From a virus: a stretch of 64,000 bases of DNA. Of the stretch, positions 17,801 through 34,564 are shown piece by piece. Below the pieces are notes generated by a model that did not search any database, was not told the DNA's origin, and saw only the letters and a list, made by a program, of their open reading frames with translations. The DNA lies in IMG/VR virus record IMGVR_UViG_3300049979_000188. The stretch is one strand, 5' to 3'. Position numbers and translations under genes: made by a program. The stretch's first letter is position 1. The number at the start of each line of letters is the position of its first letter.

Positions 17801-18985
17801 CTAAACAAGCGGCTCATCAACGGAGCCGGGTAGGGGGGTAGCCAGCATGAGGGCGCGCTTAGCGGCCTGCTTGGCCTGAATGCGGGCGCGCACCTCGGGT
17901 TGCTCGCAGCGGCGCTGCTCCGTATCACCGGCCTGGGCCATGTCAAGGCCACGCGCGTGGCAGAGCGCAGCCAGGGTAACGAGCGTGCCGCCCACCTCCT
18001 GGTGAAACTCCCCGATGGGCCGGCCAAAGACGTAGTCGACGAGCTTGAGTACGTCTTGCTTGCTCGTGCCGTTGGCCTGCAGCAACTCAATAGCTTCTTC
18101 CCCAAAGCGGAAGCCTCGCTCCTGGTAGTCCTCTGACACATCGGGCCCAAACGTTTCCTGCATCCAGGCCCCAACTCGGGCTTGGAAACCTGGCTCAGAT
18201 GCTGTCTGCTCGCTGACTAGCTCCGGTATAGTGGCTGCCCTGGCCAGGGTGGCGTGCAGCGAGAGGGCCTTGTCACGAACGTAGTCGCAGCAGTGGGCTT
18301 CGAGCAAATCCTGGTCAGTCCAGGTCTTAATTTCTTCTTCCATCAAAGCGTCCATCACCGGCCAGAGCCAGCGCATGGTAGCCGCAAGCGTGTGGGCCGT
18401 GATGGTACCCAGCGGCAGTTGCGCAGGAGATACTTGGTCTGAAGGCGAGCGCTCGCGCTTGGTATAAATGGGCTGCCAGTTCTCGGCCGGTGTATTGTCC
18501 ATTCCACCCGGCACGATGCCGTAAGGCCCCAGCCAGCCAATCTGCACCAACTCACTCGGGCGGGCCGTGGTCTGGCGACTTTCCTTACGCAGCCTGACCG
18601 CGGTGAGCGCTTGCTGCAGCAGCGAAATCTCGGTAAGGGCCGTGGTGAGCGCTTGCCGCAGCAGCGAAATCTCGGTAAGGGCCGTGGAAGCTTTCTCACG
18701 GGAGATACTACCGGGCTCGGCGTTATGCAAGTAACGCTGATTAGTTGCCCAGCGCGAGTCAAGCCGGTGCTGCATGGCCATGAAAAGGGTGTCCTCGACG
18801 AGCGGGCCGCTCAGGCTGGCCGAGAGTTCGTAGCCCGCCTTAAAGCAAGCCCAGGCCAGCGAGCCCTCGCTGGTGTACTGCAAGTCGTCGGTGGCCCAGC
18901 GTTCGGCTGTACAGGCGGCACTATATGCCGCGCGCATTTCCTCGTCCGTATGACGCAGACGGGCAGGGGGAGTCAGGTGTTCCAT
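17801..18985 (-). CDS. Multidomain phage protein with C-terminal MazG-like domain
   Basis: FQARVGAWMQETFG...RFGEEAIEL...QEVGGTLVTLAALC; internal 14-aa tandem repeat. Confidence 0.7.
   Translation of the reverse strand: MEHLTPPARLRHTDEEMRAAYSAACTAERWATDDLQYTSEGSLAWACFKAGYELSASLSGPLVEDTLFMAMQHRLDSRWATNQRYLHNAEPGSISREKASTALTEISLLRQALTTALTEISLLQQALTAVRLRKESRQTTARPSELVQIGWLGPYGIVPGGMDNTPAENWQPIYTKRERSPSDQVSPAQLPLGTITAHTLAATMRWLWPVMDALMEEEIKTWTDQDLLEAHCCDYVRDKALSLHATLARAATIPELVSEQTASEPGFQARVGAWMQETFGPDVSEDYQERGFRFGEEAIELLQANGTSKQDVLKLVDYVFGRPIGEFHQEVGGTLVTLAALCHARGLDMAQAGDTEQRRCEQPEVRARIQAKQAAKRALMLATPLPGSVDEPLV
18602..18685. repeat. 42-bp tandem repeat, 2 copies, 1 mismatch
   Basis: Encodes TALTEISLL(R/Q)QALT twice. 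Confidence 0.95.
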
Positions 18986-18996
18986 AAGGAGGGTAG

Positions 18997-19476
18997 TTAG
19001 TGATTGCTTTCCGGGTCGGATTCTTCTTCGGGTCGGAACCAGTAACCGGGGCGCTCGGTAAGACCCAGGCGGGAGGCAATGGCGTAATACCCGTCCTGGA
19101 AGAAGTGGTTGTTCTCGCGCTTGGCATGAAGGTCGAGCGTTTCAAGCGGGGCGGTCGCAAACTCAATCTGCGACCAGCTCAGCACCGGCTTATCAGGGCT
19201 CGTGGTCAACTCCACGACGGGTTTTCCGCCCTCCGGACTCAGGGTAGAGTTGACCACCGAGGCGTGGTCGTCAATCCAGACCATGGACTTTACCAGCAGG
19301 GGCGGCGTGTCGATGCCCCGGTTCGAGGCGGCTTGCTGAAGCAAAGCTTTTTGCATGACCAGGTGGCCCAGGAAGAGTTTGAGGTCACGGGCCAGGCGTA
19401 CGAAGTTTTCTTCAGTGGCCAGATTAGCCAGGTCCTGCATGGTGGCCACTTCGTGGCGAGGGGCAGCTGTTGCCAT
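18997..19476 (-). CDS. Hypothetical protein
   Basis: Packed ORF. Confidence 0.7.
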   Translation of the reverse strand: MATAAPRHEVATMQDLANLATEENFVRLARDLKLFLGHLVMQKALLQQAASNRGIDTPPLLVKSMVWIDDHASVVNSTLSPEGGKPVVELTTSPDKPVLSWSQIEFATAPLETLDLHAKRENNHFFQDGYYAIASRLGLTERPGYWFRPEEESDPESNH

Positions 19477-19482
19477 CGTAAG

Positions 19483-19692
19483 CTAAGGGGTTAAGTCCGT
19501 GCCGGGTGCACAGGGGGAGGGGGGAGTAGTAAAGCGGTAGCTTCGGCAGAAGCGAAGCACTTCCAGGCATTCCGGGCAAGTGACCTTGGCGCTGGTCAAG
19601 GGCCCCGTCATATCATCGAGGAAGCCGCAGAGCGTGGCCAGGCCGCGGGCTGGGGTAACGATGTGTACTTGGCGAGCGATACGCATATTCAT
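19483..19692 (-). CDS. Small Cys-containing (possible Zn-binding) protein
   Basis: H...LCG...VTCPEC. Confidence 0.6.
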   Translation of the reverse strand: MNMRIARQVHIVTPARGLATLCGFLDDMTGPLTSAKVTCPECLEVLRFCRSYRFTTPPSPCAPGTDLTP

Positions 19693-19697
19693 CGGCC

Positions 19698-20246
19698 TTA
19701 CTCCTTACGCTCGTAGTCGATTCCTTCTAGCAGCGTTCGCCCGTGGGAGGGCAGGGCAAATTCATTGGCTCGCAAGTAATCGAAGATGGCCACCTGGTTG
19801 CGAATGGGCGCGGGTTGCATGCGGCGCTCACCTTCCGTGGCCGTTAAGTCGAACGTGTGGGGGTTCACACTCAGGCGCAGGCGAAATCCGCGGCTACGCA
19901 TCGAGCAGCTATAGCCATCAGCTTCCACTTCGAAGCCTTTGGTCATGAACGTGAGCTCGGCGATGTGGCAAAGCGGAATGACGCCGTTCTCCAAGGGCTG
20001 GGCCAGCTGGTCGGCGGAACGCAGACGGGGTAAGAGCGCCATCAAGGCCAGCGAGCCATTGAAGACGGACTGCGCGCTGTAGTAAACGTAGTCGCGGCTC
20101 ACATCCAGGTGCAGGGCCGTCAGGGGGAAACGTTTTCCTTCCTCATTTTGCAGCTCCACGCCAGTCAGCAGGTACGGGGCCAGGACACTGGCCAGAATGG
20201 AGCCCGTATTGTTTGAACCGGTCAGACGTTTTCCGTTTACTAGCAT
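19698..20246 (-). CDS. Hypothetical protein
   Basis: Packed ORF; weak similarity to 21302-21931. Confidence 0.7.
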   Translation of the reverse strand: MLVNGKRLTGSNNTGSILASVLAPYLLTGVELQNEEGKRFPLTALHLDVSRDYVYYSAQSVFNGSLALMALLPRLRSADQLAQPLENGVIPLCHIAELTFMTKGFEVEADGYSCSMRSRGFRLRLSVNPHTFDLTATEGERRMQPAPIRNQVAIFDYLRANEFALPSHGRTLLEGIDYERKE

Positions 20247-20261
20247 AAGGGGGAGGGCGTA

Positions 20262-20753
20262 CTAAAAAGGTAAATCGTTGGCGCCGCTGCGGGCATTGTA
20301 GTCGGCTTCCAGGCTGCGGATACCCTGCATGAGCTGGTTCCACCAGTAGGTGAGGTCCGCATGACCCAGGTAAGCCGCCGGAATACCGCTTACCTGCTGG
20401 GCCAGCTGCTTGAAGTGCTTGTTGACTTCCATGAGCTGGTCCAGGCTCTGCTCCAGCTGCAAGTCGATAGTGGGCGCGTTTACCCACGGGTCGTCGCCAA
20501 ACTCAAAATCTGTCAACAGCGCCGGGTATTGCTCGGGTAGGTTAAAAACGCGCAAATCCACAGAGGGGCGCAGCTCATAGCGACCAGCCGGCAGCACGGC
20601 GTAGGTGCCCTCGTCGTAGTTGAGGAGCAGTACATTGTGCTCAGTCCACGGCTCACGCAGGGGAATGGAAGGCAGGCAGCCGGCTCGACGCAGGTTGTAG
20701 AGTACCGCCTGGCGGTCGATTTCCGAGGGTGCCTTGAGAATGATAATGGCCAT
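20262..20753 (-). CDS. Hypothetical protein
   Basis: Packed ORF. Confidence 0.7.
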   Translation of the reverse strand: MAIIILKAPSEIDRQAVLYNLRRAGCLPSIPLREPWTEHNVLLLNYDEGTYAVLPAGRYELRPSVDLRVFNLPEQYPALLTDFEFGDDPWVNAPTIDLQLEQSLDQLMEVNKHFKQLAQQVSGIPAAYLGHADLTYWWNQLMQGIRSLEADYNARSGANDLPF

Positions 20754-20826
20754 ACTGTTCTTTATTCAGCTAAGGTGAAAGCTTCGTGGAAGTCAAAGAT
20801 GTCGGTTGCCATACGAGGACAGTAGG

Positions 20827-21291
20827 CTACGCCGCGGGCCAGATAAGAGCCCCAATCTTTTGCGCTTTCTCGGTATGGCCGAGCTCTTTGGCAGAAGTGG
20901 CCTCGTAGACCAACACCGCCGTTAGCTCGTAGAGGGCCGCGTGAACCTCTACGTTAAAGGGATGCGTACCCTGAAAAAGAAAGAGGGCGTTATGCGCCAG
21001 CAGTAACGGCTCCCAGAGCGGATACTCGGGATGGAAACCTTGGCGGAACACTAACTCCAACTCCTGGAGTACTGCCGCCAGCTCACTTTCCAACGCCGTC
21101 CCACAATTAGTATAGGCTACACCCAATGCCTTTACGACAAGCGGCAGACACTCCTTCAGGCCGGGGGCCGCGTAGAGCATAGCCCGCGCATCCTGGATGA
21201 GTAGATTGGCCACGTAATAGTCACCGAGCCGATTAGCCCGCGTAGCCTCTTCGAGCTTTTCGAGGAGGGCTTGTTTTTTATCTTCCGTCAT
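20827..21291 (-). CDS. Hypothetical protein
   Basis: Start set to MTEDKKQ. Confidence 0.7.
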   Translation of the reverse strand: MTEDKKQALLEKLEEATRANRLGDYYVANLLIQDARAMLYAAPGLKECLPLVVKALGVAYTNCGTALESELAAVLQELELVFRQGFHPEYPLWEPLLLAHNALFLFQGTHPFNVEVHAALYELTAVLVYEATSAKELGHTEKAQKIGALIWPAA

Positions 21292-21301
21292 GGTAAGAAG
21301 G

Positions 21302-21931
21302 TTAGTAAGGTACGTATTGCGTTTCTTGCAGGCCCAGGGCCACATGCGCAGCCAGCAGCTGCTTACCCACATAAGCAAGCACGCCTGGCCGGTTACCCGG
21401 TCCCATGTGCAAAATCCCCGTCTCGGTCAAGTTAAACCAATAGGCTTGCTGCTGGTAGGCGTAAACCCCATCAATACCTTCTTCCTGCTCGGAGGTGGTG
21501 AGATACTCCGTATCAGCGGCCGGCGCATACGCACTACCCTTGGCCATTGTACCCAGAATAGCCCGCAGCGTAGACTCGCCTTCCATAGTACACAACCACC
21601 CAAACGGATGCAGCACCGGGGTGCACTGATGAAAAGCGTAGGAGAGATGTACCCCCGAGTCAAACAAAAATTCCCCGTCCTGCCAGCCAATCACCGCCAC
21701 CTGCAAGTTATCAGGCGTCTGAACCAGTAAGCCATACGGCAGGTAGGGGGCAGCTACTTCAAAGACGGAAGTAGCTGAAACGTTAGCAGGAGGACTCATA
21801 AGGGGAGTAGGCGTGGGAGTAACGTAGAGCCAGCGAATGTAGACAATGACGTACGCCACCACTAAGGGAATGCCCAGTGCTAGTATAGTAGCTGGGTAGT
21901 GGTGATGCAGAAAAGACCAGAGTGAATCCAC
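21302..21931 (-). CDS. Hypothetical protein with N-terminal TM helix
   Basis: Hydrophobic N-terminus, then APYLPYGL motif. Confidence 0.7.
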   Translation of the reverse strand: MDSLWSFLHHHYPATILALGIPLVVAYVIVYIRWLYVTPTPTPLMSPPANVSATSVFEVAAPYLPYGLLVQTPDNLQVAVIGWQDGEFLFDSGVHLSYAFHQCTPVLHPFGWLCTMEGESTLRAILGTMAKGSAYAPAADTEYLTTSEQEEGIDGVYAYQQQAYWFNLTETGILHMGPGNRPGVLAYVGKQLLAAHVALGLQETQYVPY

Positions 21932-22427
21932 GGAGAAGAAGTACCCCTAAAAGTCCAAAAAATAACAGTACTATTTTCCCTAAGGAAACAGGGTTGTACC
22001 CAAGGGCTTCCTAACGGGGAACCGCATGTACCTTTATACCCTTTTAGACAGTAGCTAAAATGCGCCCTGCCGCTAGCAAGAGACGGTAAATGAGTGCGGG
22101 GGCGTAAAAAGCAAGTACACCCTACCCCCCTATGTTGGGAAACATTGTTAGCCACCTGGTAGGGAATGGCTGCGTAGGGTAAACCGGGAGAGGAGAGAGT
22201 AGTACAGGGGGTGTGTAGTCCCCACATCCCCCCAATTTGTACGCAAATTTTTTTCTGGCGAATTACGCGGCCAGTATACTGGCTTACGGCGGGACAGGAC
22301 CAAGCATGAGAAAAAGAGAAAAGTATGCACTACCTAAAAAAAAGCCTGCGTCTTCCACGCGGGAAATAAAAGGACACCGGGTCACAGGATGCCAGAAGAC
22401 GCAAGAGCAGGGTAGGGCTGGAGAGAA

Positions 22428-22610
22428 TCAACGAAGGCTACGAAGGCCCGTATAAGCCATGACGATATTGAGCAGCATCGAGCCGAGCACGACTAAAAAG
22501 ACGCTCTTCTCTTCGGGCTTCTGATAAAGCATTACCAGGGCCCAAACAGCCACTAGAGGGGAGGCCACCAGGTAGAAACGAAAGAAGAGACGGAAGTTGA
22601 AAGTCGGCAT
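22428..22610 (-). CDS. Small two-TM membrane protein
   Basis: Downstream of the promoter at 22641-22666. Confidence 0.7.
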   Translation of the reverse strand: MPTFNFRLFFRFYLVASPLVAVWALVMLYQKPEEKSVFLVVLGSMLLNIVMAYTGLRSLR

Positions 22611-22878
22611 GGGGAAGGCCTGGTAAGGATACCCCTAGTTTACGGAGAACCCAGGCCCGGTGTTACCTGGACAGGGACATTCTTTTGGCAGGGCGTACTA
22701 CCGGGATAGTAGGTTCTCTTTTTTGCAACATTCTCACTAACAATGTTTTCGACATTGTTGACTACTTTCTTCTATCGGGCTTTTTCCCGACATTGTTGGG
22801 GCTGGGTGGTAACGCCGGGCTGGGCGTACGCGTATACTGGGTGTGCCTGCCACGGGGGCGGCCGCTTGTTTACCTGTA

Positions 22879-25360: not shown

Positions 25361-25414
25361 AAAAGCCTGGTCCACACTATTCCGTAAAGAGGGGAATGTG
25401 GGCCAGGCTTTTTT
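25361..25414. terminator. Bidirectional terminator
   Basis: AAAAGCCTGGTCCACA...TGTGGGCCAGGCTTTTTT. Confidence 0.8.
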
Positions 25415-25469
25415 GCGTATGAACCCCTACGATGAGTAACGCCGGGCTCGGAGAACGCGTAGACTAGGT

Positions 25470-25823
25470 ATGGATACTAACCTCTTCGATAACACGCACG
25501 TAGCCTTGGCTGAAGTCGGCACGAGGCGTGATGCGTTGCGCCGTAAAGCGCTTTTTCAGGTAACCATGCTCGTGAGTGAGCTGGCCCCTGCTACGCTTCA
25601 GTGCCAGCTCACGACCCCCGTAAAGGAGCTTGACCACGCGTTTACGGGTCTCTCCGTAACAGTTGGCCGTGATGGCCTCTACCTAACGGCCAATCTGGAA
25701 TACGACGACCGCCCAAACTTTGCGTATCAGATTCCGGGCACTGAAATAGAAGATGCTGACCTGGCTCAGCTAACATTAGCCGTAAAACGGCAGCGGGCGG
25801 CTGAACTCGGTTTCTCTTTTTAA
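25470..25823 (+). CDS. Hypothetical protein, near-leaderless
   Basis: ATG 8 nt after the CGTA box. Confidence 0.75.
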   Translation: MDTNLFDNTHVALAEVGTRRDALRRKALFQVTMLVSELAPATLQCQLTTPVKELDHAFTGLSVTVGRDGLYLTANLEYDDRPNFAYQIPGTEIEDADLAQLTLAVKRQRAAELGFSF

Positions 25824-25846: not shown

Positions 25847-25877
25847 TTGGTATTGTCGGGAAGGTTGCCTAGCTTTG
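25847..25877 (+). promoter_or_regulatory. Bacteroidota housekeeping sigma70 promoter upstream of the sigma gene
   Basis: TTG (25847-49), 20 nt, TAGCTTTG (25870-77), matching TTG-N19-21-TAnnTTTG. Confidence 0.6.
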
Positions 25878-26006
25878 TGTTCAGGTAACAGCGCTACTGT
25901 CAAGGAGGTACTAAGGAAAAGTAAATTTATTTTCGCTTTTTCCGTAACCTTTGTAACGCTGGGCCGTTAAAGACCTCAGAAACCAACCAACCCCCCACTA
26001 CCACGT

Positions 26007-27092
26007 ATGAACCAGTCTCCCCTGCACCAGGTAAAGGCCAGCATTTTTACGCCCAAGGGCGTACTTGCCACCGACAACTTCCCCTACGACGAGGCTACCT
26101 ACGGGGCCGTTGGCACGGACTCGGCCGAGTTGATTCAACTCTTCCACGCCCCGGCCGCTAACCCCATGCGCCAGTACCTGCACGTGGCCGTGCTCGACGG
26201 GGCCACGAAGGAAATACTGTCCGAGATTGGCGAGCTGCCGGCCGTAAAGCGTGACCGTGCCGGTAACATTAAGCCCGGCTACGGGCGTATTTCCCCCCAC
26301 TTGGTGGGCATGACCGATACGCCCGGCTTTAAGCGGAACCTCAGTGCCGAGGTACGCCGTCACACCCGTGACTTGACGGGCAAGGAGCTCAAGTACTTCC
26401 TGCAAGGGGTACTGATTAAGGGTACCTTCGACCGCGACCTTATGCAGCAGGTGATTGTGGACGCTATTCTCTACTATGCCCAGCCCGGCAAGGAAGTACT
26501 GGCCATTGAGGAAGGGGGCAAGCAAATGAGCTACTACCTGGGCATCAAGGCCAATAACATCTACGTGGACTACAAGCGTCACCAGAACGCCTACAAGCGC
26601 GGCAGTGGCAACGTGGTGAGCATCGACGCGCTGGCCGAGCGCGTAGAGGGGGCCACCGACGTGCTCGGTTTTCTGGCCGGGTCGGATTCAGCCGACATGC
26701 TCGACCTGGATGCACAGGTACTACGCCAGGCTATCTTCGGCGTGCTGGCTGATAAGCCCGACAAGCTGCGGCTTTTTGAGCTGCACCTGGAAGGGCTGAG
26801 CCCGGCGCAGATTACCGTGGCCCTGGGCTGGGGTGAGGCGGACGAGAACGGCAAGGTAGACAGCGGCCGCGCCCGCAAGTCGCTGCTGGATACACTCACC
26901 CTGCTTAAAAAGCGTCTACCGGCCCTGGCTGGGCAGCGTCCCCGGGCCAGCGCGCAGTGGGGCGAAGGTAGCGGCGAGAGTCGGGCCACGCGTCACCTGA
27001 GCAGCGCCGACTGCGAGATGGCCGCCCTGGCCCTGGAAGGGCCGGTGAGCTTCCGCGAGCGCAAACGCCTCAAAGTAGGGGCCGCCGTTTAA
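26007..27092 (+). CDS. ECF-like RNA polymerase sigma factor with N-terminal extension
   Basis: Region 2-like DRDLMQQVIV and YYLGIKANNIYVDYKRH; region 4-like LADKPDKLRLFELHLEGLSPAQITVALG...GRARKSLLDTLTLLKKRL. Confidence 0.8.
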   Translation: MNQSPLHQVKASIFTPKGVLATDNFPYDEATYGAVGTDSAELIQLFHAPAANPMRQYLHVAVLDGATKEILSEIGELPAVKRDRAGNIKPGYGRISPHLVGMTDTPGFKRNLSAEVRRHTRDLTGKELKYFLQGVLIKGTFDRDLMQQVIVDAILYYAQPGKEVLAIEEGGKQMSYYLGIKANNIYVDYKRHQNAYKRGSGNVVSIDALAERVEGATDVLGFLAGSDSADMLDLDAQVLRQAIFGVLADKPDKLRLFELHLEGLSPAQITVALGWGEADENGKVDSGRARKSLLDTLTLLKKRLPALAGQRPRASAQWGEGSGESRATRHLSSADCEMAALALEGPVSFRERKRLKVGAAV

Positions 27093-27216
27093 CTTACGAA
27101 AAACCCTGGCTCAAAAAAAGTCAGGGTTTTTTACGCCTCAGCGTAACCTTTCCTCCGGGCTGGGCGTAAAAGGACATGTAAGCGGCAACGGAGCGGCTTA
27201 CCTTACTCCTGCTGCA

Positions 27217-27555
27217 ATGGCTAAAGCTGCACAACCTAAATTTTTCACGCGTAGGGCGGCTGTCAACCCGGGCTTGCCTACTGCTAAACGCCACGTAGAC
27301 TACCTGGTTAAAGCCGCCACTCAGGCACGGGCACTGGCCTTACTGGAGCTGGTTAAAGTCCCTGGGCGCGGGCATAGTCTATATTATACCAACGCCCGTG
27401 AGTTTCGACTCTACTGGGTTACGCGCTCGACTGCGGAGGCCGATGCATCCATGCTTGAGTTGAGCTGTGATGCGCTCGAAGGTATCTGGTGGAAGCCGGA
27501 TATGGACCCGGACAGTGAGTATGTGTGCCTGTGGTATACTCCCATTACGGAATAA
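27217..27555 (+). CDS. Hypothetical cassette protein
   Basis: Own promoter and AACGGA leader. Confidence 0.8.
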   Translation: MAKAAQPKFFTRRAAVNPGLPTAKRHVDYLVKAATQARALALLELVKVPGRGHSLYYTNAREFRLYWVTRSTAEADASMLELSCDALEGIWWKPDMDPDSEYVCLWYTPITE

Positions 27556-27574
27556 ACATCCTTCGCTTACTCTT

Positions 27575-28093
27575 ATGCAAGACCCGAATTTTCAAACCCA
27601 CACACTGGCTGATAATAATCAAACCCTGGGCGCGCTGCGTAAGCTGCTCAATGAGCTAGCTGAGAAAGACCCATCCCTGGATGAGCTTAAGCTATGGCAA
27701 GGGACGGACTCGGGTGAGGGCTACCTGCGCCTGTGTACGGTTACGGTGGCCAACGCCCGCCACGTAGACTACGACGGCGACGATGCCGATGATGAAATGT
27801 TCTGCGTAGAGCCCGACGAGGAAGGACACCGGGAGGCTGATATGGGGCCTGGCTACGTACACCGAGAGCTTGACCGCCAGGGGAACCTTAACGGTTATAA
27901 GAACGTGCTGGTGCTCGGCGACCACCGCACCCCGCTTGACATTGCGCAGGCAATCACCAGCGAGCAGGAACGCCTGGCGAAACAAGCAGCTGAAAAAGAA
28001 GCGAAGGCCAAACGTGAGGCGCTTAAAAACGACCCCGAGTACCAACGCCTGCAAAAAGAGGCCAAGGAAGCACGTAAAAAATATGGTCTGTAA
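27575..28093 (+). CDS. Hypothetical protein, acidic centre and basic C-terminal helix
   Basis: Second cistron; start reset to MQDPNF. Confidence 0.75.
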   Translation: MQDPNFQTHTLADNNQTLGALRKLLNELAEKDPSLDELKLWQGTDSGEGYLRLCTVTVANARHVDYDGDDADDEMFCVEPDEEGHREADMGPGYVHRELDRQGNLNGYKNVLVLGDHRTPLDIAQAITSEQERLAKQAAEKEAKAKREALKNDPEYQRLQKEAKEARKKYGL

Positions 28094-28152
28094 GTGTAAC
28101 CTTTTCCCAGGGACCTGCGTAAAAGAACTCAGAAACCAACCTCCCCTTTCTC

Positions 28153-28545
28153 ATGGCCAAGCACCTGGAACCCGTCCCCTACGAATCGTTAATCGGCAAA
28201 CGCGTGCGCGTCTACCGCAACCTGCACAACTACGGCGGGGAGCACAAGGTCTTGTACTCGGTGCAGCACAAAGGGCTCGTGATTGCCCACGTACCGCAAA
28301 TTACCCTGGATGAGGTGAGCTTCTCAGTGCAGCCCGCTGGCCAGGCCAAGGTACGCCAAACCAAACGCAAGCAGGTCCACGCCTTTGTCAACGGAGTCGT
28401 GGCGGCACCCGGTCACGCCCTGGTGCGCAAGGTGAGCTACAACCCGTATCAGACCGATACCTTCGTGCTGGCCGGGCCGCTGGGCCAGGTGCCCGTGCTC
28501 GCGGCCGGGCGCATCAACATTACCCAGGTCGGGCTTTTTATTTAA
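28153..28545 (+). CDS. Conserved phage hypothetical protein
   Basis: Own promoter, AGAAACCAAC leader; RVRVYRNLH...KQVHAFVNG...SYNPY motif. Confidence 0.85.
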   Translation: MAKHLEPVPYESLIGKRVRVYRNLHNYGGEHKVLYSVQHKGLVIAHVPQITLDEVSFSVQPAGQAKVRQTKRKQVHAFVNGVVAAPGHALVRKVSYNPYQTDTFVLAGPLGQVPVLAAGRINITQVGLFI

Positions 28546-28636
28546 AAAAAGATTGCCCCGGCGTGTAACCTTACCGCCGGGGCCTGCGTAAAAGAACCAT
28601 CAACGGCAACGGAGCCGGGTCTCAGCTACTTTCTTC

Positions 28637-29536
28637 ATGTCTACTACCACGCAGCTTAAGCAGCTACAAGCTGAAATTGCGCTCTTACAAAATGTGCGTA
28701 ACTCGACTGAATACGTAGCATTAGAAGCAGAAATCCAGCAGCTACAAGGCCGCCTAAGGCAGGCAAAGCAGAATTACCAGGCAAGCGTAGCCGATGAAAT
28801 TGCGGCCAAGGAATCGGACATTAAGGCCCTTAAGATGCAGCAGCTTCGGGAAACCAATCCGGCTTTCCAATACTCCATACCGCTATTAAGTTGGTTTAAC
28901 CGGTGGGGACGTGGCATAGATTGGGGTCAGGGTGGGGTTCGCCTGCGCTGGGTATCCCCGAATCAAAACTGGGTGATTATCACCGCAGGTGGCGGTACGG
29001 CTGGACAAGGCACCCCAATGGGTACGGGTGCCTACTACTATGCGGCGGCGACGCACTATCTTTACCGGGTAGTAGATGGAGCTACGCACATGAACTCCAC
29101 GTCCAAATATCAGTTTTCCTTTGAGGGGCGGTTACTCAAGGCTACGAAAGAGGAATGGATAGCCTTTGCCCTCATCCAGGACGAGGGTTGCCCCTTCACG
29201 GAGAACCTGGACCGTTCAACACATGGCGGCTACCGGGTTGGAGACTACGTCTTTAACGAGATGCGTAGAACCTACGGTTTCATTTGGGAGCTGAATAACT
29301 ACCAACATAAGCCCACGGTTAGCTTCCGCGATGACCCATATTATAACCGTCCTATCGGCTACCCACTGGAACGAGTTGAAACGGTCCTACGCCTGGCTAA
29401 GCGCGTAGAGGAAATGGACTATCAAGGGATGTTTGACCTCGTCTCACCCGATGACAACCCGGCTAACCAGGCGCTGCGAGAAGTCCCCCCGACCTCTCCC
29501 CTACCCGACAAGAGCCTGGAAGGGTTTTTACTATAA
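28637..29536 (+). CDS. Hypothetical cassette protein with N-terminal coiled coil
   Basis: Own promoter and AACGGA leader; AT-richer codons. Confidence 0.85.
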   Translation: MSTTTQLKQLQAEIALLQNVRNSTEYVALEAEIQQLQGRLRQAKQNYQASVADEIAAKESDIKALKMQQLRETNPAFQYSIPLLSWFNRWGRGIDWGQGGVRLRWVSPNQNWVIITAGGGTAGQGTPMGTGAYYYAAATHYLYRVVDGATHMNSTSKYQFSFEGRLLKATKEEWIAFALIQDEGCPFTENLDRSTHGGYRVGDYVFNEMRRTYGFIWELNNYQHKPTVSFRDDPYYNRPIGYPLERVETVLRLAKRVEEMDYQGMFDLVSPDDNPANQALREVPPTSPLPDKSLEGFLL

Positions 29537-29634
29537 GGAGCAAAAGAATTTTTATTTTTACGTAACCTTTCCCGCCAGCCCGGCGTAAAAGGACCAGCAA
29601 CGGCAACGGAGCCGGGGCTTAACCAACCAGTATC

Positions 29635-30423
29635 ATGCGTACGATTGAAGAGGCAATTGCCAACCTGCTAAAAGAGAATACGGGTAGCCCAATGGGTGAC
29701 CATGCTGGCTACGCGGGCGGGCGACACTGGGAGAAAAACCAGGGTCGTAACTTTGCCTCGCAGCCCAGCTTTGTGGTGGAGGGCTACACCCGTGGGGAAA
29801 CGGACGAGGCAGGCTGGGCACCCATTCAAAACAGTGACCTGGGCTTTACCATCAATGTCTATCACTACTTGGTTAGCCGGCTGCGGGTGACTTCGGAAAG
29901 TGAAAACGAAAATGCCCTGCTGCAAACCCTGCTGCAAGCGGACCCCGACGACTTGTACGAAATCGGCTACATGCAGCAGTTTGCCACCAGCCGCAACACG
30001 GATACGGATAACTACTGCATCTGGCTGAGCCCGCTCAACACCTACAACGGCGAGTGCCTGCTGAGCCAGACGCTGCAATTCAGCATCTACGACCACGAGG
30101 GCACCAGCTTTATCGTGCTACAAATCCACGGCGGGGCCGACGTGCGCGGTGGCTATACCACGCCCCAGGTATTCGAGATTGCCAATGACGAGCGCGATGG
30201 GTTCGTGACGGGCTATATCGGCGTAGACGCTACGGCTCAGGTAGACGGCGAAACCGTACGCTGGAACTCGGAGAGCGGCTACGGCGGCTCGTTTAGGGCC
30301 GTAGACGACTCGGACGACGTGGAGGTACCCGAACTGGAACTTGAATGGCACGCCGAAACCAACACCTTCCGCCTGGCCCAAACCCACGAGGCCGTAAGCT
30401 TCTACCCCGAGTATAGCCTCTAA
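29635..30423 (+). CDS. Hypothetical acidic cassette protein
   Basis: Own promoter and AACGGA leader; LQIHGGADVRGGYT motif. Confidence 0.85.
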   Translation: MRTIEEAIANLLKENTGSPMGDHAGYAGGRHWEKNQGRNFASQPSFVVEGYTRGETDEAGWAPIQNSDLGFTINVYHYLVSRLRVTSESENENALLQTLLQADPDDLYEIGYMQQFATSRNTDTDNYCIWLSPLNTYNGECLLSQTLQFSIYDHEGTSFIVLQIHGGADVRGGYTTPQVFEIANDERDGFVTGYIGVDATAQVDGETVRWNSESGYGGSFRAVDDSDDVEVPELELEWHAETNTFRLAQTHEAVSFYPEYSL

Positions 30424-30549
30424 GCTACTAAAAAACCCTGACCCTAAAAAAGTCAGGGTTTTTTTCTATGAAGATGTAACCTTTCCCAGGGCTCTGCGTA
30501 AAAGGACATGTAAGCAGCAACGGAGCTGCTCACGCTAAAGACCCTTACC

Positions 30550-31077
30550 ATGTCTCACATCATTCGCTACCGCATTAGCCCGGCCCACTTGCTAGCTGAA
30601 CAAGCTTATAGCGCCACCTACCAAGGCAGACAACATGAACTGGCTACTGAAGTAAACCCGGCTTACCCACTGCTGGCTATTGGCTCGGGGGATACACCCG
30701 AGGATGCATACCAGTCGGCAGTTGGCCAAATCGACGGCATGGAGGATGCCCAAGGCGAGCATTTTGCTTATTCAAAACTACCCAAAGCTGGGCCTAAACG
30801 TATCGTAGGTAAAAACGAACTGCTGTCTCCCGAAGAAGCCGTAGCAACGCAATATTTTGTCTTGATTCGTTTCGCCTTGAGTGGGGGTGACGAAACGGAA
30901 AAGTCATATACGGTTAAGGTGCGCTTGACTGGGGGTCGTTGGAGCCGGTTTGCCTGGCGCATTGCTAAAGAAAAGGTAGAGGATGCGCTGGCGCATTTAC
31001 GTAAGACGCTCGGACCCCACGAGACGAAGGTGCTCGAAATAAAAGGCCCCGTGCTTGAACGTCCTACGTGGTACTAA
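30550..31077 (+). CDS. Hypothetical cassette protein
   Basis: Own promoter and AACGGA leader. Confidence 0.85.
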   Translation: MSHIIRYRISPAHLLAEQAYSATYQGRQHELATEVNPAYPLLAIGSGDTPEDAYQSAVGQIDGMEDAQGEHFAYSKLPKAGPKRIVGKNELLSPEEAVATQYFVLIRFALSGGDETEKSYTVKVRLTGGRWSRFAWRIAKEKVEDALAHLRKTLGPHETKVLEIKGPVLERPTWY

Positions 31078-31168
31078 TTTTTTTCACTTGAAACGTAACC
31101 TTTCTCCCAGCTCCGCGTAAAAGGACATGTAAAGCGCAACGGAGCACTTTACGCTAACGACCCCTACC

Positions 31169-31933
31169 ATGAAAAGCATTGAGAAGTACAAGTTCAGTGG
31201 CCTGACCATCAAAATCAAACAGGACACGGACCCCAGCAACCCGCGCAAAGAGTTTGACAACGTGGGCACACTGGTATGCTGGCACCGCAATTATGAGCTG
31301 GGCGACGAGCCCGAGTTTGGTGGGGGCCGCCGGGGTTTGCCGAGCCTGGACGCGGGTGAGTACCGCCTGGCGATGGCCGAAGTATACGACCCCGGCATTA
31401 GCGACTGGACGGATACGGCCATGAGCCGGTTGTGGGATAAAGCCCAGGCCGCTTCGAGCAGCAGCATTGGCGTGCTCACCGATGCCGAAATGCGGGCATA
31501 CGAGCTAGCGGAGTTGGAACTGCGCCAGCGGGTAGGGGAGCGGGTGCAGCGCGTACTGGATACGCACTACATCGTGCTGCCGGTCTACCTCTACGACCAT
31601 TCCGGCCTGGCCATGCGGGTAGCTGACTTTGGGGACCGTTGGGACTCGGGCCAGGTGGGCTTTATCTACTGCACCCGTGAGAAGGCCCTGCGCGAATGGG
31701 GCAACGGCGGGCTGGTGCTGAGTAAGAAACGCCGCCAGCAAGCCGTTACCTACCTGACGGGGGAAATCGAGACGTACCACGAGTACCTCAGCGGGCAGGT
31801 ATACGGCTACGAAATCAAGCGCAAGGGCGAAGGCGTGATTGACTCGTGCTGGGGCTTCTACGGCGGGGTAGACTACGTGAAAACCGAAGCCGAAGCAGCG
31901 GCTGCCTGCCTGGTAGAAACCGTTGAAGCATAA
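31169..31933 (+). CDS. Conserved phage hypothetical protein
   Basis: Own promoter and leader; LPVYLYDHSG, WDSGQVGFIY, YLSGQVYGY, DSCWGFYG. Confidence 0.85.
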   Translation: MKSIEKYKFSGLTIKIKQDTDPSNPRKEFDNVGTLVCWHRNYELGDEPEFGGGRRGLPSLDAGEYRLAMAEVYDPGISDWTDTAMSRLWDKAQAASSSSIGVLTDAEMRAYELAELELRQRVGERVQRVLDTHYIVLPVYLYDHSGLAMRVADFGDRWDSGQVGFIYCTREKALREWGNGGLVLSKKRRQQAVTYLTGEIETYHEYLSGQVYGYEIKRKGEGVIDSCWGFYGGVDYVKTEAEAAAACLVETVEA

Positions 31934-32039
31934 GGGCAATGGACCCCGCCCTAACCAGCGGGGTCTTTTTTTTGTTATTTTGTAACCTTTTCCCAGGGCT
32001 CGCCGTAAAAGGACTATCAACCAACTACTCACCCCTACC

Positions 32040-32498
32040 ATGCAAGTAACTACCACCGCCACACTGTGTGTCTTTCGTGATGCCCGAGGTAACGTGCAGA
32101 CCCGTGTACTAGCTGACTTCTACGACAACATCTGCCTAGATGGCTACGATGCCCAAGGTGTCCGCCAGTCGTATGACGACGAGGCCCGCCACATTGGGGA
32201 ATGGCTTGAAAAGCACCCCAGCCTGAACTACAAGAGCCAGGAGATAGCCGTTGTGGCCGACGTGAAGCTGCCCCGTCGGTTTGCCGATGGGGCCCTGGTG
32301 CAGCACCACGGGCTGGACGTGACGGTGATAAACTACCAAGAGGAAGCGGAGCAGTACGTGGTGGAAGTACCCGCTTATGAGGTATTCGATTTTACGGTAA
32401 AACTCAAGAACGGTCAGCCGCGCCCGGTACTGCGCGTGGAGCCAGCCAGTCAATACAAAGCACCCGAGGCCGAGCTTAACTACCCTGAAAAATACTAG
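32040..32498 (+). CDS. Hypothetical cassette protein
   Basis: Own promoter, ATCAACCAAC leader. Confidence 0.85.
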   Translation: MQVTTTATLCVFRDARGNVQTRVLADFYDNICLDGYDAQGVRQSYDDEARHIGEWLEKHPSLNYKSQEIAVVADVKLPRRFADGALVQHHGLDVTVINYQEEAEQYVVEVPAYEVFDFTVKLKNGQPRPVLRVEPASQYKAPEAELNYPEKY

Positions 32499-32590
32499 TA
32501 AAATTACGGCGAGCCTTGTAACCTTTCCCCAGGGCTCGCCGTAAAAGGACTATCAACGGCAACGGAGCCGCTTAACTAACCCCCGCTAGT

Positions 32591-33415
32591 ATGTACACCA
32601 TCCAGCAACTCACCCTCGACCAGCAAAGCCAGGCCGGTGGGCGTCAAGTACGCGTCACCTTTGCCAACGGCCAGACCTATACCGTAGCCGATGCGGGCGG
32701 GGACTACTGCTTCCAGAACCTAGCGTACTCGCTCACGGCCGAGACGCTCAACGAGAACACGGCCTTGCGCGAGGCCCTTACGGCCGTGGGTGAGTTTTAC
32801 CGCTTCTGGCTCAGCGGCAACGAGGACCCGATGGTGCTCATGCTGCGCAAGGATACCCCGGTGCTGCACGAGCTCTACGAAAGCGAGGAAACGAATAACA
32901 CGCCGGAGCAAGCGGCGGACCCTGCGCCTGGCAAAGACTATCCGTACGCCCTGGCTTGTTCTATCTTCACCACGCATAAAGACCCTGATTTGGTGGAGCG
33001 GGCACTCATTTACGAAGATGATGCGGTAGCCTTATTACGCGCAATCCGCCAGGCCGGGCTCTCGGATGCGCTTCCCGTCATCCTTGGCACGGGGGCTGAG
33101 TCGATTGAGCTAAGCATGAATGAGAAAGGGTTCTACTTCCTGACCCAAGTAGATACTACGCCTGATTCGGAGGACAAGCTTTACGCCGATGTACGGCGCT
33201 TTTGGCTGCGCCGCAAGACCGAGCCCGTGCAAGACGTGATAACGCTGGAAATTGGCGAATTTGCCGCCCTGGTGAACCGCATTAGCAAACTACGTGGCAC
33301 ACGCTCGTATCACCCCGGTGAAGATATTGAGCTTCCCATTGCGGGCGTCTTCCTAGTCAAGCGCGAGCACGCGGTAAACACCAAGCCCAAGCTCTACCGC
33401 ACCGGCTTGATTTAA
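32591..33415 (+). CDS. Hypothetical cassette protein
   Basis: Own promoter and AACGGA leader. Confidence 0.85.
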   Translation: MYTIQQLTLDQQSQAGGRQVRVTFANGQTYTVADAGGDYCFQNLAYSLTAETLNENTALREALTAVGEFYRFWLSGNEDPMVLMLRKDTPVLHELYESEETNNTPEQAADPAPGKDYPYALACSIFTTHKDPDLVERALIYEDDAVALLRAIRQAGLSDALPVILGTGAESIELSMNEKGFYFLTQVDTTPDSEDKLYADVRRFWLRRKTEPVQDVITLEIGEFAALVNRISKLRGTRSYHPGEDIELPIAGVFLVKREHAVNTKPKLYRTGLI

Positions 33416-33539
33416 GTAGTGAAACCCTGACTCCTAAAAAAAGTCAGGGTTTTTTTCTGTAAAGTTGTAACCTTCTCCCCGAGCCTGTCGTAAAAGGACA
33501 TGTAAAGCGCAACGGAGCACTTTACTAACCCTAAGCGGT

Positions 33540-34049
33540 ATGTTTAACGTTAGAACCACCACCCTGGCCAAGCGCACCCGTAATGTACTGGCCCACCTGC
33601 CGGGCTACCAGCGCCGCCAGCGCTTCGACATTACGCTGGACCTGCACCAAATCGGTGAGCAGTCCCCCTACTTCTCGGCCACGGTGAGCGGCCGCTCCTT
33701 CGGGGGCTGCAACCACGAGCTCATCCTCCGGCACTGGCCCCAGGCTAAATGCATCGTGGACCTGCACTTGTGCGACATGGACGGGGCACCCATGCACACG
33801 GAGGCCAACGCCCTCTACCACGCCCAGGCCTACCTCCACCAGCAAAAGGCCCATTACCCAGCCGCCAAGGGGCTCGACTACCTGGCTTCGCACCTACGCA
33901 TCAGCCAGGACCAGGCCCTGGACCTACTGGCTGACCTGGTAGACAAAACCCCCGACGTGCAGGCCCTGCTCATGAAGGCCTTTTGCGACCAGCAGCGCCC
34001 CCGCTGGCAGCAGGAGGCTGACCAGGCCCTGGCCTTCCTCAACGCCTAA
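33540..34049 (+). CDS. Conserved phage hypothetical protein
   Basis: Own promoter and leader; GGCNHE...LHLCDMDGAPMH...NALYH motif. Confidence 0.85.
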   Translation: MFNVRTTTLAKRTRNVLAHLPGYQRRQRFDITLDLHQIGEQSPYFSATVSGRSFGGCNHELILRHWPQAKCIVDLHLCDMDGAPMHTEANALYHAQAYLHQQKAHYPAAKGLDYLASHLRISQDQALDLLADLVDKTPDVQALLMKAFCDQQRPRWQQEADQALAFLNA

Positions 34050-34150
34050 ATCAAGTGCCCAGGCGTAAAAAACCTGGGCTTTTTTTCCCAAAAACCCTAA
34101 CCTTTTCGCCGAGACGGGCGTAAAAGGACTCAGAAACCAACCACACCCCC

Positions 34151-34564
34151 ATGTCAACGCTCACTTCCCTGGCCCCGGCGGCGGCCCTGCCGCAACCGCC
34201 GCTTACCGACCACGCCTTTGCCACGCCCCACGGGCAGCTGCTGCGCGCGCTGCGTCCCTTTCTGCGCCGCACGAGTCTGCCCTTGCTCGGGGCGGCCCAG
34301 CACCTGGCCCGGCCCTTAACTGCCCAGGTGCTCATGCCCGGCCAGGTGGGCATTTCGCTCGACGGTCGGCGCGTAAGCTTGCCCATTGGCACCCAGCTGC
34401 TGGCCACCAGCATCGCCCCCACGACGGGCTACACCCGCGTCGTAGCCACGGAGCCAGCTAGCACCCGGCCCCTGTTTGTGAGCGCCGACGTGTTGCAAGC
34501 CTCGTACGACGAGGAAGGGGCCAGCCTGCTGGAACAAGTACTCACCCGTTTACCCATCTGCTAG
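34151..34564 (+). CDS. Hypothetical cassette protein
   Basis: Own promoter (CTAAC variant), AGAAACCAAC leader. Confidence 0.8.
   Translation: MSTLTSLAPAAALPQPPLTDHAFATPHGQLLRALRPFLRRTSLPLLGAAQHLARPLTAQVLMPGQVGISLDGRRVSLPIGTQLLATSIAPTTGYTRVVATEPASTRPLFVSADVLQASYDEEGASLLEQVLTRLPIC

What the first reader, a model, noticed from the sequence alone, without database searches (positions are those of the whole stretch)
25847..27092. ECF-like sigma gene wired as the switch: host promoter in, own promoter as feedback
Seen: a sigma region 2 plus region 4 protein with about 120 extra N-terminal residues and an insert in the region 4 HTH, placed immediately before the array. Upstream are a TTG-N20-TAGCTTTG box and a near-consensus array promoter (GTAAC-N16-CGTT, 25944-25968). 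Known: ECF promoters have AAC at -35 and CGT at -10 (B. subtilis SigW TGAAAC-N16-CGTA, SigX TGTAAC), ECFs often autoregulate, and TAnnTTTG is the Bacteroidota housekeeping -7 box. Inference: host RNAP makes the sigma, which amplifies itself and fires about 80 promoters.
Basis: partly seen in the sequence, partly recalled or inferred. Interest (0 to 1): 0.8.

Follow-up and report, generated by a model that had tools for sequence, protein, structure and literature searches.

The report
Divergent phage ECF-type sigma factor gene
A large uncultured phage of Bacteroidota-type bacteria carries a very divergent sigma factor gene at the head of a long row of small genes whose promoters have the matching ECF layout. 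This is a new example of a known phage strategy, and it is not shown that this sigma is the one that fires them.

Summary
The ORF 26007-27092 (361 aa) is real and is a two-domain, ECF-type sigma factor. Pfam finds nothing in it. An AlphaFold model built on 8 metagenomic homologues matches sigma factors almost exclusively. A profile-profile comparison with genuine Bacteroidota ECF sigmas gives 97% probability.

It has about 105 extra N-terminal residues, an enlarged loop in the sigma-4 helix-turn-helix, and a conserved 50-residue C-terminal tail.

The weak cassette-type promoter at 25944 is real: 23 bits, against at most 10.9 in shuffles. The TTG-N20-TAGCTTTG box is present, but such boxes are no commoner in the window than chance predicts.

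The core GTAAC-N16/17-CGTA occurs 80 times in the window, always in the gene's orientation, and falls into two classes.

The proposed wiring (host promoter in, own promoter as feedback) is plausible. It is already described for phages 7-11 and phiEco32. It is untested here.

Two things weaken the link between this sigma and the array. The same extended motif sits upstream of the host primary sigma gene rpoD in Flavobacteriia-type genomes, so a host sigma probably reads it too. Unchecked notes also report further sigma-like genes elsewhere in this 203-kb phage. The scan noted this same reading before, on this genome.

Verdict: new member of a known kind, moderate interest.

The parts
25361..25412 (.). 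Hairpin with 16-nt arms and flanking A/T runs. Terminator-like boundary upstream of the two-gene unit that ends with the sigma gene.
   Evidence: Inverted repeat I5, 94% complementary; sequence read.
25436..25465 (+). Class B ECF-type promoter (GTAACGCCGGGCT..N..CGTAGACT) with a perfect GTAAC-N17-CGTA core, 12 nt before the ATG of ORF 25470-25823. No convincing terminator separates that ORF from the sigma gene, so read-through is possible.
   Evidence: Fold of 25815-25880 is not significant: z -1.87, no U-run.
25470..25823 (+). Upstream ORF, 117 aa, no family match.
25847..25877 (+). TTG-N20-TAGCTTTG, a candidate Bacteroidota primary-sigma (-33/-7) promoter.
   Evidence: Present. It is the only such composite in gene orientation in the window, but the window-wide count equals chance.
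25944..25974 (+). Weak cassette-type (class A) promoter: GTAACCTTT-N12-CGTTAAAGAC.
   Evidence: 23.0 bits on the class A matrix against at most 10.9 in shuffles. It departs from the consensus at the otherwise constant A of CGTA.
25975..26006 (+). Unstructured CA-rich leader (CAGAAACCAACC type), shared with about 11 array cassettes.
   Evidence: Fold -3.6 kcal/mol, z +1.05.
26007..27092 (+). Sigma factor gene, 361 aa (P0001).
26007..26321 (+). N-terminal extension, residues 1-105. Shared only with homologue P0009. Low model confidence, no known fold assigned.
26322..26606 (+). Sigma-2 domain, residues 106-200. It includes a family-specific conserved N-terminal segment (invariant E115, R117, T120, E127, Y130) and a region 2.3/2.4-like motif (Y177..K181 A182..N184..D188..R191).
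   Evidence: pLDDT 85-92. SigC sigma-2 Z 5.8 and sigmaE region 2 Z 5.3. hhalign from residue 138. Invariant columns.
26607..26684 (+). Variable low-confidence linker, residues 201-226. No sigma-3 domain.
26685..26939 (+). Sigma-4 domain, residues 227-311, with an enlarged loop (residues 273-286, bases 26823-26864) before the recognition helix.
   Evidence: Z 7.0-8.7 to ECF sigma-4 domains. The only PDB profile hit is sigmaE region 4, E 0.25. hhalign.
26940..27089 (+). C-terminal extension, residues 312-361, conserved in most homologues (W318, R326, S332, C336, P346).
27098..27132 (+). Intrinsic terminator closing the sigma gene unit.
   Evidence: -18.5 kcal/mol, z -5.2, followed by a U-run.
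27143..63521 (+). Array of cassettes: terminator, GTAACCTTT-N12/13-CGTAAAAGGAC promoter, leader, small ORF. 59 class A core sites, with a few class B sites among them.
1236..22666 (-). Nine leftward class B promoters (GTAAC[GA]-N16-CGTA[AT]AC[TC]) at gene junctions of the left arm.

Best explanation
ORF 26007-27092 encodes a phage-borne, very divergent ECF-type sigma factor. Its layout is: N-terminal extension, sigma-2, linker, sigma-4, C-terminal tail.

Most likely it binds the host core RNA polymerase. Sigma-2 would bind the beta-prime clamp helices and sigma-4 the beta flap. It would then direct the enzyme to the phage's GTAAC(-35)-N16/17-CGTA(-10) promoters, which head nearly every transcription unit on both arms of the window, including the 59 cassette promoters of the array that begins 51 nt after its stop codon.

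The first sigma molecules would come from one of two sources. One is host holoenzyme at the TTG-N20-TAGCTTTG box. The other is read-through from the class B promoter at 25436. The weak cassette-type promoter at 25944 then adds positive feedback.

Shown: the gene, its sigma fold and ECF homology, the promoters and their layout.
Inferred: core binding, which promoter class it reads, the host-type entry promoter, and the feedback.
For: Sigma identity:
- Model confident in both domains.
- Sigma factors fill ranks 1-21 of an unbiased search of 48,161 chains and almost all of Foldseek's top 50.
- hhalign gives 97.1% probability, E 5.6e-11, against six Pfam-verified ECF sigmas.
- In a six-frame search of 301 Bacteroidota genomes the profile had only weak matches; the six I checked by Pfam are all ECF sigmas.
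- Three of 9 family members touch Sigma70_ECF, best E 0.0026.
- Language-model neighbours at 0.96 include sigma-70-family clusters.

Core binding: a predicted complex of residues 105-205 with Bacteroides beta-prime 200-400 got 'weak support', score 0.39 against a best control of 0.01. That mark was reached by 58 of 80 solved complexes and 2 of 110 mismatched pairs, but such low passes are more often wrong than right. The runs agree in at least 70% of contacts and the partner pLDDT is at least 73. Sigma/beta-prime complexes are solved, so the pass may reflect memory.

Promoters:
- 80 GTAAC-N16/17-CGTA sites. The N17 form gives 63 against 0.45 expected. All lie on the - strand left of 22.7 kb and the + strand right of 22.8 kb, in gene orientation.
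- AAC/CGT with a 16-17 nt spacer is the ECF hallmark (established knowledge).

Other points:
- It is the only sigma-like ORF in the window.
- Hairpin plus U-run terminators fit a bacterial-type polymerase.
- The own-gene site scores 23 bits against at most 10.9 in shuffles, and it shares the cassette leader.
- The only TTG-N18-22-TAnnTTTG in gene orientation in 64 kb lies in the 183 nt before this gene.
- The same dual wiring is described for phages 7-11 and phiEco32 (PMC4331800).
Against: - Nothing links this protein to any particular promoter class.
- The extended cassette motif lies 33-35 nt before rpoD in three Flavobacteriales genomes. GTAACyTTT-N-CGTATAA, or a related ECF-type site, lies 62-75 nt before rpoD in seven more Bacteroidota genomes, with varying spacers. 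A host sigma therefore probably reads the same sequence.
- Unchecked notes from other windows report a sigma70-like gene and two more sigma-like genes in the same phage.
- The own-gene promoter breaks the otherwise constant A of CGTA.
- The host-type box is statistically unremarkable window-wide.
- No related contig could be fetched, so co-occurrence of this sigma with the motif was not tested.
Confidence: 0.55

Rival explanations
1. The protein is a sigma factor, but the cassette (class A) promoters, including the weak copy before its own gene, are read by a host ECF-type sigma holoenzyme as early promoters. The phage sigma would then be an early product that switches the polymerase to the class B promoters (GTAACG..CGTA[AT]ACT) of both arms. 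That is a classical early-to-middle/late cascade.
For: - The exact extended class A motif occurs in host-type genomes. Nine or ten of 14 GTDB hits are Bacteroidota.
- It is conserved before rpoD with variable spacers, and it is almost the only such site in each genome.
- Rows of many small genes, each behind the same promoter, resemble phage early host-takeover regions. For T4-type PeSL cassettes and SPO1 this rests on general knowledge and on earlier notes; I did not check the papers.
- Classes A and B are cleanly separable: class B sites score negative on the class A matrix.
Against: - ECF sigmas are normally held inactive by anti-sigmas, which makes them a risky basis for early transcription.
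- The rpoD motif was not seen in the seven sampled rpoD loci whose product starts MRQLKISKQITN (lineage unnamed; one is Dyadobacter koreensis). The phage's host is unknown.
- Class B sites are interspersed within the array (37799, 47160, 51236, 60752). Both classes share the GTAAC and CGTA cores that ECF sigmas contact.
- A host-type box before the sigma gene would not be needed under this model.
Confidence: 0.25
2. Another sigma-like protein encoded elsewhere in the 203-kb genome reads the array. This protein serves a smaller or different promoter set.
For: Unchecked first-reader notes report a 'phage sigma70 gene' 112 kb upstream of the window, and an ECF sigma plus a second sigma-like gene about 101 kb upstream.
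Against: - Those genes lie outside the window and were not verified.
- A sigma70-type protein would not be expected to read AAC/CGT promoters.
- This gene's position at the head of the array and its cassette-type promoter and leader argue for a link.
Confidence: 0.1
3. The protein has a sigma-like fold but does not act as an initiation factor. It might be a decoy that sequesters core polymerase or a host anti-sigma, or a plain DNA-binding regulator.
For: - It is extremely diverged: no Pfam hit.
- It has unusual N- and C-terminal extensions and an enlarged HTH loop.
- The complex prediction gave only weak support.
Against: - Both sigma domains are conserved across nine family members.
- The region 2.3/2.4-like motif and the recognition-helix arginines are invariant.
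- 80 ECF-layout promoters surround it.
Confidence: 0.07

Closest known systems
Phage phiEco32 / Salmonella phage 7-11 sigma factor (with their anti-sigma)
   Same: - A phage-encoded, highly diverged sigma redirects host core polymerase to phage-specific promoters.
- The sigma gene is preceded by both host-type and phage-sigma promoters, so that host holoenzyme makes the first molecules and the phage sigma sustains expression (PMC4331800).
- The genome is split into two divergent gene clusters.
- An open-complex structure titled 'gp79-dependent' (9m7y_F) appears among the fold matches: Z 6.2, 161 residues aligned. I take its 208-residue chain F to be a phage sigma of this kind, but the entry title does not name the phage.
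   Different: - No sequence match to any of 50,697 phage records.
- The phiEco32 promoter is a single element, TAATGTATA, not an AAC/CGT bipartite promoter.
- No anti-sigma or host-RNAP inhibitor was identified next to the gene here.
- The phiEco32 motif was found before only six genes (PMC4331800), against 80 core sites in 64 kb here.
- Bacteroidota-type host signals.
Cellular ECF (group 4) sigma factors such as B. subtilis SigW/SigX, E. coli sigmaE and M. tuberculosis SigL/SigD/SigK
   Same: - Two-domain sigma-2/sigma-4 architecture without sigma-3.
- Best structural matches.
- Promoters with AAC at -35 and CGT at -10, 16-17 nt apart.
- A copy of the cognate-type promoter before its own gene.
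   Different: - Falls below every Pfam threshold.
- About 105-residue N-terminal and 50-residue C-terminal extensions.
- Enlarged loop in the sigma-4 HTH.
- No recognisable anti-sigma partner.
- No homologue in 301 Bacteroidota genomes or in the GTDB representatives scanned with peptide patterns.
B. subtilis phage SPO1 gp28 and gp33/34, and T4 gp55
   Same: Phage-encoded sigma-family proteins that reprogramme host polymerase in a temporal cascade. SPO1 also has a dense module of small early genes with many promoters and terminators (general knowledge, not checked here).
   Different: Those proteins are not ECF-like in promoter type. T4 gp55 has only a sigma-2-like part and needs the sliding clamp.
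PeSL (promoter-early stem-loop) cassettes of T4-type phages
   Same: Repeated terminator/promoter modules flanking small genes.
   Different: PeSL promoters are read by the host primary sigma. Here the promoters have ECF layout and a phage sigma gene sits at the head of the row.

Membership tests
Sigma-70 superfamily, group 4 (ECF-type) sigma factors | Sigma-2 domain (regions 2.1-2.4) with the core-binding and -10 recognition motif | tested here: met
   - pLDDT 85-92.
- SigC sigma-2: Z 5.8, rmsd 3.1 A, 78 of 89 residues. SigmaE region 2: Z 5.3, 91 residues.
- hhalign covers it from residue 138.
- Motif Y177-L-x-x-K181-A-x-N184-x-x-x-D188-x-x-R191 read against the canonical W-L-x-x-I-A-x-N-x-x-x-D-x-x-R. 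This is my own by-eye register, using the invariant columns.
- The Pfam Sigma70_r2 model itself gives no hit.
Sigma-70 superfamily, group 4 (ECF-type) sigma factors | Sigma-4 domain (regions 4.1-4.2) with a helix-turn-helix for the -35 element | tested here: met
   - Z 7.0-8.7, rmsd 1.8-3.9 A over 58-77 residues to SigL, SigD, CnrH, SigW, SigK, BldN and sigmaE region 4.
- The only PDB profile hit is sigmaE region 4, E 0.25.
- hhalign.
- About 11 residues in the HTH loop are left unaligned.
Sigma-70 superfamily, group 4 (ECF-type) sigma factors | No sigma-3 domain and no region 1.1; a short linker between sigma-2 and sigma-4 | tested here: met
   Residues 201-226 are variable and low-confidence, too short for sigma-3. 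The 105-residue N-terminal extension is net-neutral, unlike acidic region 1.1 (counted from the translation). Its fold is unknown.
Sigma-70 superfamily, group 4 (ECF-type) sigma factors | Passes the curated sequence models (Pfam Sigma70_r2, Sigma70_r4_2, Sigma70_ECF) | tested here: not met
   No hit at E<=10 for this protein. Among 9 family members, Sigma70_ECF is touched by 3 (best E 0.0026) and r4_2 by 2 (best E 0.06), both far weaker than the hits of genuine ECF sigmas. Membership rests on fold and profile-profile evidence.
Sigma-70 superfamily, group 4 (ECF-type) sigma factors | Binds core RNA polymerase | tested here: inconclusive
   The predicted complex with Bacteroides beta-prime 200-400 got 'weak support': 0.39 against a best control of 0.01. 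A biochemical test is needed.
Sigma-70 superfamily, group 4 (ECF-type) sigma factors | Directs initiation at AAC(-35)/CGT(-10) promoters | not testable with these tools
   80 such sites surround the gene, but assigning them to this protein is inference.
Sigma-70 superfamily, group 4 (ECF-type) sigma factors | Co-encoded anti-sigma factor (common, not universal) | tested here: inconclusive
   Ten neighbouring ORFs have no relevant Pfam family. A DUF4325 STAS-like protein lies 17.5 kb away.
phiEco32/7-11-type phage sigma wiring | Sigma gene preceded by both a host-holoenzyme promoter and a promoter of the phage-sigma type | tested here: inconclusive
   The phage-type site is confirmed at 23 bits. 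The host-type box is present, but its count equals chance. Neither was tested for activity.

The most novel reading that the evidence does not exclude
The cassette promoter is the phage's copy of a conserved host ECF-type promoter, the one that drives the host's own primary sigma gene rpoD in Flavobacteriia-type bacteria. The phage sigma would be a mimic of the host ECF sigma that reads it, but free of the host anti-sigma. The roughly 60-cassette array would then be a dual-key regulon. It would be fired at once by any host stress sigma released on infection (perhaps helped by the site-2 proteases noted just outside the window), and then locked on by the phage's own sigma.
Probability: 0.2. Interest if true: 0.65.

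Novelty: new member of a known kind. Interest (0 to 1): 0.45.

Why it matters
If the assignment holds, this would be one of the largest predicted phage-sigma regulons: 80 sites in 64 kb, with more reported elsewhere in the genome. It would also be a phage-sigma system in Bacteroidota, a phylum whose alternative-sigma promoters are poorly mapped; in 2020 no ECF motif was known for B. thetaiotaomicron (PMC7366714).

The sigma together with its very uniform promoter, leader and terminator module would be a compact orthogonal expression system for Bacteroidota.

A side result is a testable lead on host biology in its own right. A conserved ECF-type promoter (GTAACyTTT-N12/13-CGTAwAA) sits before the primary sigma gene rpoD in Flavobacteriia-type genomes. 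It also bears directly on how the phage gets its first transcripts.

Tried and rejected
- Pfam and PHROGs on the protein: no sigma hit.
- Single-sequence AlphaFold model: useless, pLDDT 33.5.
- tblastn against 50,697 phage records and megablast of 20 kb of the window: no match.
- Word-indexed homologue searches found only the protein itself and P0009.
- Attempts to fetch related loci all failed. Peptide patterns found no confirmed relative in viral contigs, metagenome contigs or genome contigs. No whole genome is held for the window.
- Co-occurrence or co-variation of this sigma with the promoter motif in relatives (contigs of 71.7 and 291.6 kb exist) therefore could not be tested.
- The cassette promoter pattern has no exact match in IMG/VR. 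A promoter-plus-leader pattern gave three chance hits with no promoter arrays.
- I tried to equate the motif with 'PM2', the near-palindromic second promoter motif of B. thetaiotaomicron. The papers and supplements I could read do not print its sequence, so this remains only a lead.
- I tried to find the host ECF sigma through an autoregulated copy of the motif. The extended motif is nearly unique to rpoD in each genome, so no host sigma was identified.
- No paralogue of the sigma in the window.
- No look-alike in other scanned genomes.
- The sigma-70-type consensus scan found no TTGACA/TATAAT promoter near the gene, as expected for a Bacteroidota-type system. It also missed the terminator after the gene, which folding confirms.
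- The predicted complex with the beta-prime clamp region returned only 'weak support'.
Full report
**The gene.** The window belongs to a contig of 202,851 bases. Its content is phage-like: MazG-type pyrophosphohydrolase, HD phosphohydrolase, a LAGLIDADG endonuclease and many PHROG families. It has no match among 50,697 deposited phages. Genes run leftward up to about 22.7 kb and rightward from about 22.8 kb. The ORF in question is 26007..27092 on the + strand, 361 aa. Its start codon lies 42 nt after the -10 element of the upstream cassette-type promoter, within the range seen in cassettes with the same leader. The N-terminal extension is therefore probably translated.

**Is it a sigma factor?**
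Neither Pfam nor PHROGs gives a sigma hit, even at E<=10.
- A filter-free HMMER scan of 1.84 billion cluster representatives found eight homologues of 233-312 aa, 32-50% identical, all matching residues 113-356. All are single-member clusters at 90% identity, drawn from metagenome collections (JGI/IMG, ENA) and Logan assemblies of public sequencing runs. Two sit on contigs of 71.7 and 291.6 kb. JGI's pipeline calls two of them 'sigma24 family'.
- With their alignment AlphaFold2 becomes confident in two helical domains: pLDDT 85-92 for residues 110-200 and 77-85 for 240-310.
- Foldseek's 50 best PDB matches are almost all sigma factors, led by ECF sigmas, though with weak E-values (0.017 and up) because the two domains are oriented freely.
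- A search that does not depend on Foldseek (48,161 chains) puts sigma factors in ranks 1-21. Sigma-4 of SigL, SigD, CnrH, SigW, SigK, BldN and sigmaE gives Z 7.0-8.7 with rmsd 1.8-3.9 A over nearly whole domains. Sigma-2 of SigC and sigmaE gives Z 5.8 and 5.3. LuxR-type HTH domains appear only below these. By the tool's own note these Z values are middling. The weight lies in the uniformity of the list and the coverage of both domains.
- Independent sequence evidence agrees. The family profile's only PDB hit is sigmaE region 4, E 0.25. Three of nine members touch Sigma70_ECF.
- In a six-frame search of 301 Bacteroidota genomes, 20 genomes gave weak matches (E 7e-5 to 0.01). The six matched ORFs I extracted are 186-203 aa, and Pfam confirms all six as ECF sigmas.
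- Profile against profile, the family aligns with those six over 143 columns, from region 2.1 to 4.2, at 97.1% probability, E 5.6e-11. The six were chosen as the profile's best weak hits, which inflates this number somewhat.
- I conclude that the protein is an ECF-type sigma-family protein (about 0.9).

**Anatomy beyond the core.**
- Residues 1-105 are an extension that only P0009 shares. The model is unconfident there.
- Residues 106-137 form a family-specific, highly conserved segment preceding region 2 (invariant E115, R117, T120, E127, Y130).
- The sigma-2/sigma-4 linker (201-226) is variable, and there is no sigma-3.
- In sigma-4 the loop before the recognition helix is enlarged. It is only 2 residues longer in sequence alignments. 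About 11 residues (273-286) are unaligned in every structural superposition, and the loop varies in length among homologues.
- Residues 312-361 are a C-terminal tail conserved in most homologues.

**The promoters.**
- GTAAC-N17-CGTA occurs 63 times against 0.45 expected. With N16 included there are 80 sites: 10 on the - strand, all left of 22.7 kb, and 70 on the + strand, all right of 22.8 kb.
- Class A has 59 sites, all at or after 27143. The form is GTAACCTTT-N12/13-CGTAAAAGGAC. Each normally follows a hairpin/T-run terminator. Each is followed either by a covarying hairpin with a CAACGGAG loop or by a CAGAAACCAACC leader.
- Class B (GTAAC[GA]...CGTA[AT]AC[TC]) heads left-arm genes and the genes just upstream of the sigma gene (22809, 23537, 24261, 25184, 25436), with a few inside the array. 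Its start codons lie either 12 nt or 33-34 nt after CGTA. Class B sites score negative on a class A matrix.

**The sigma gene's own control region.** The gene is the second of a two-gene unit bounded by a hairpin at 25361-25412 and a strong terminator at 27098-27132 (-18.5 kcal/mol, z -5.2). There are three possible inputs:
1. The perfect class B promoter at 25436, with no significant terminator before 26007.
2. The TTG-N20-TAGCTTTG box at 25847-25877.
3. The cassette-type site at 25944, GTAACCTTT-N12-CGTTAAAGAC, followed by the CAGAAACCAACC leader.

Site (3) scores 23.0 bits. That is far above the shuffles (at most 10.9) but in the low tail of the array (median 39.6). It breaks the A of CGTA that every array promoter keeps. 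It is a genuine, weakened copy of the module.

Box (2) cannot be validated statistically from the window: TAnnTTTG occurs 24 times against 28.7 expected, and the composite twice against 2.4. It is, however, the only composite in gene orientation in 64 kb. My own rough figure for the expected number in this particular 183-nt spacer is about 0.004. That makes it suggestive, though the calculation is post hoc.

In favour:
- ECF architecture of both the protein and the promoters.
- Its position at the head of the array.
- It is the only sigma-like ORF in the window.
- Terminators of the kind that stop bacterial polymerase.
- Near absence of host-type promoters in the window.
- A published precedent for exactly this wiring in phages 7-11 and phiEco32 (PMC4331800).
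- A predicted complex of sigma-2 with the Bacteroides beta-prime clamp region gave only 'weak support' (0.39 against 0.01 for controls). Because solved sigma/beta-prime complexes exist, it may reflect memory.

Against:
- I scanned one genome for each of 185,579 species for the exact extended class A motif. There were 14 hits, 9-10 of them in Bacteroidota. Three lie 33-35 nt before a 287-aa protein with sigma regions 1.2, 2, 3 and 4, the Bacteroidota primary sigma.
- Sampling rpoD loci across the phylum, all six genomes whose rpoD is 81-84% identical to that query carry GTAACyTTT-N-CGTATAA (one of the six reads GTAACATAA instead) 62-75 nt before the ATG, with unrelated spacers. A Prolixibacteraceae genome carries GTAACC-N15-CGTAAACT.
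- In five such genomes this is virtually the only match genome-wide.
- Conservation of the two boxes over variable spacers is a phylogenetic footprint of a real promoter. Some host sigma therefore very probably reads the same sequence as the phage cassettes.
- The motif was not seen before rpoD in the sampled loci whose product begins MRQLKISKQITN. One of them is Dyadobacter koreensis; the lineage of the others is not named. The phage's host is unknown.
- Unchecked notes from other windows of this genome report a sigma70-like gene, two further sigma-like genes and two site-2 proteases. I could not read that DNA.
- I could not fetch any relative's contig, so the co-occurrence test that would settle the assignment computationally remains undone.

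**Verdict.** The main rival (0.25) is that a host ECF sigma fires the cassette promoters while this protein drives the class B promoters.

The design is a known one: a phage brings its own sigma, and the sigma gene carries both a host and a self promoter. The novelty lies in the family, its extensions, the size and uniformity of the putative regulon, and the resemblance of the cassette promoter to the host's rpoD promoter. An earlier follow-up in this scan, on the array itself, reached a similar reading on this same genome.

Noticed in passing
L001:3280-3310 (-), L008:5668-5698 (+), L014:7924-7954 (-); also L030-L035 and L021 about 62-75 nt before the ATG at locus position 1501: A conserved ECF-type promoter (GTAACyTTT-N12/13-CGTAwAA) sits upstream of the primary sigma gene rpoD in Flavobacteriales and related Bacteroidota genomes. 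The spacers vary, and it is almost the only such site per genome. It is identical in its extended boxes to the phage cassette promoter.
   Followed up: partly
window 22676-23668 and 25238-25290: Cluster of ACATT(G/C)TT iteron-like repeats in the intergenic regions at the point where the two gene arms diverge. Four copies lie 48-49 nt apart (23498, 23546, 23594, 23643). GACATTGTT with up to 1 mismatch occurs 16 times against 7.9 expected. This may be an origin or a set of regulator binding sites.
   Followed up: partly
window, class B promoters (e.g. 4154, 6375, 17217 on the - strand; 22809, 23537, 25436, 60752 on the +): Class B promoters place the start codon at one of two fixed distances after CGTA: 12-13 nt, implying leaderless or near-leaderless mRNAs, or 33-34 nt, with a GAAACCAA-type leader.
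   Followed up: partly
window 7812-8483 (-): A 223-aa protein with a DUF4325 STAS-like domain (E 1e-7, above Pfam's cut-off). STAS domains include anti-anti-sigma factors, so this may belong to the phage's sigma control.
   Followed up: no
window 27180-63545 (+): Most cassette leaders carry a hairpin with a covarying stem and an invariant CAACGGAG loop. About 11 use an unstructured CAGAAACCAACC leader instead, and the sigma gene is among these. No Shine-Dalgarno-like sequence precedes the start codons, as is typical of Bacteroidota.
   Followed up: no
window 28153-28542 (+): This cassette gene encodes a Phage_L5_gp82 domain protein (PF25735, E 2.7e-26). It is the only named family among the ten ORFs flanking the sigma gene.
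   Followed up: no
window 22879-23265 (+): The ORF begins with a lipoprotein-type signal (MKKLLLLAALAALALGSC). It is the first rightward gene and sits behind a class B promoter.
   Followed up: no
L066, about 85 nt upstream of ORF 1468-2025 (-): A Bacteroidota ECF sigma gene carries GCAACCTTTTTT-N-CGTC just upstream. An AACCTTT-type -35 box is therefore native to some host ECF regulons.
   Followed up: no
window 2-940 (-): LAGLIDADG homing endonuclease gene at the window's left edge (PF03161, E 7.6e-19).
   Followed up: no
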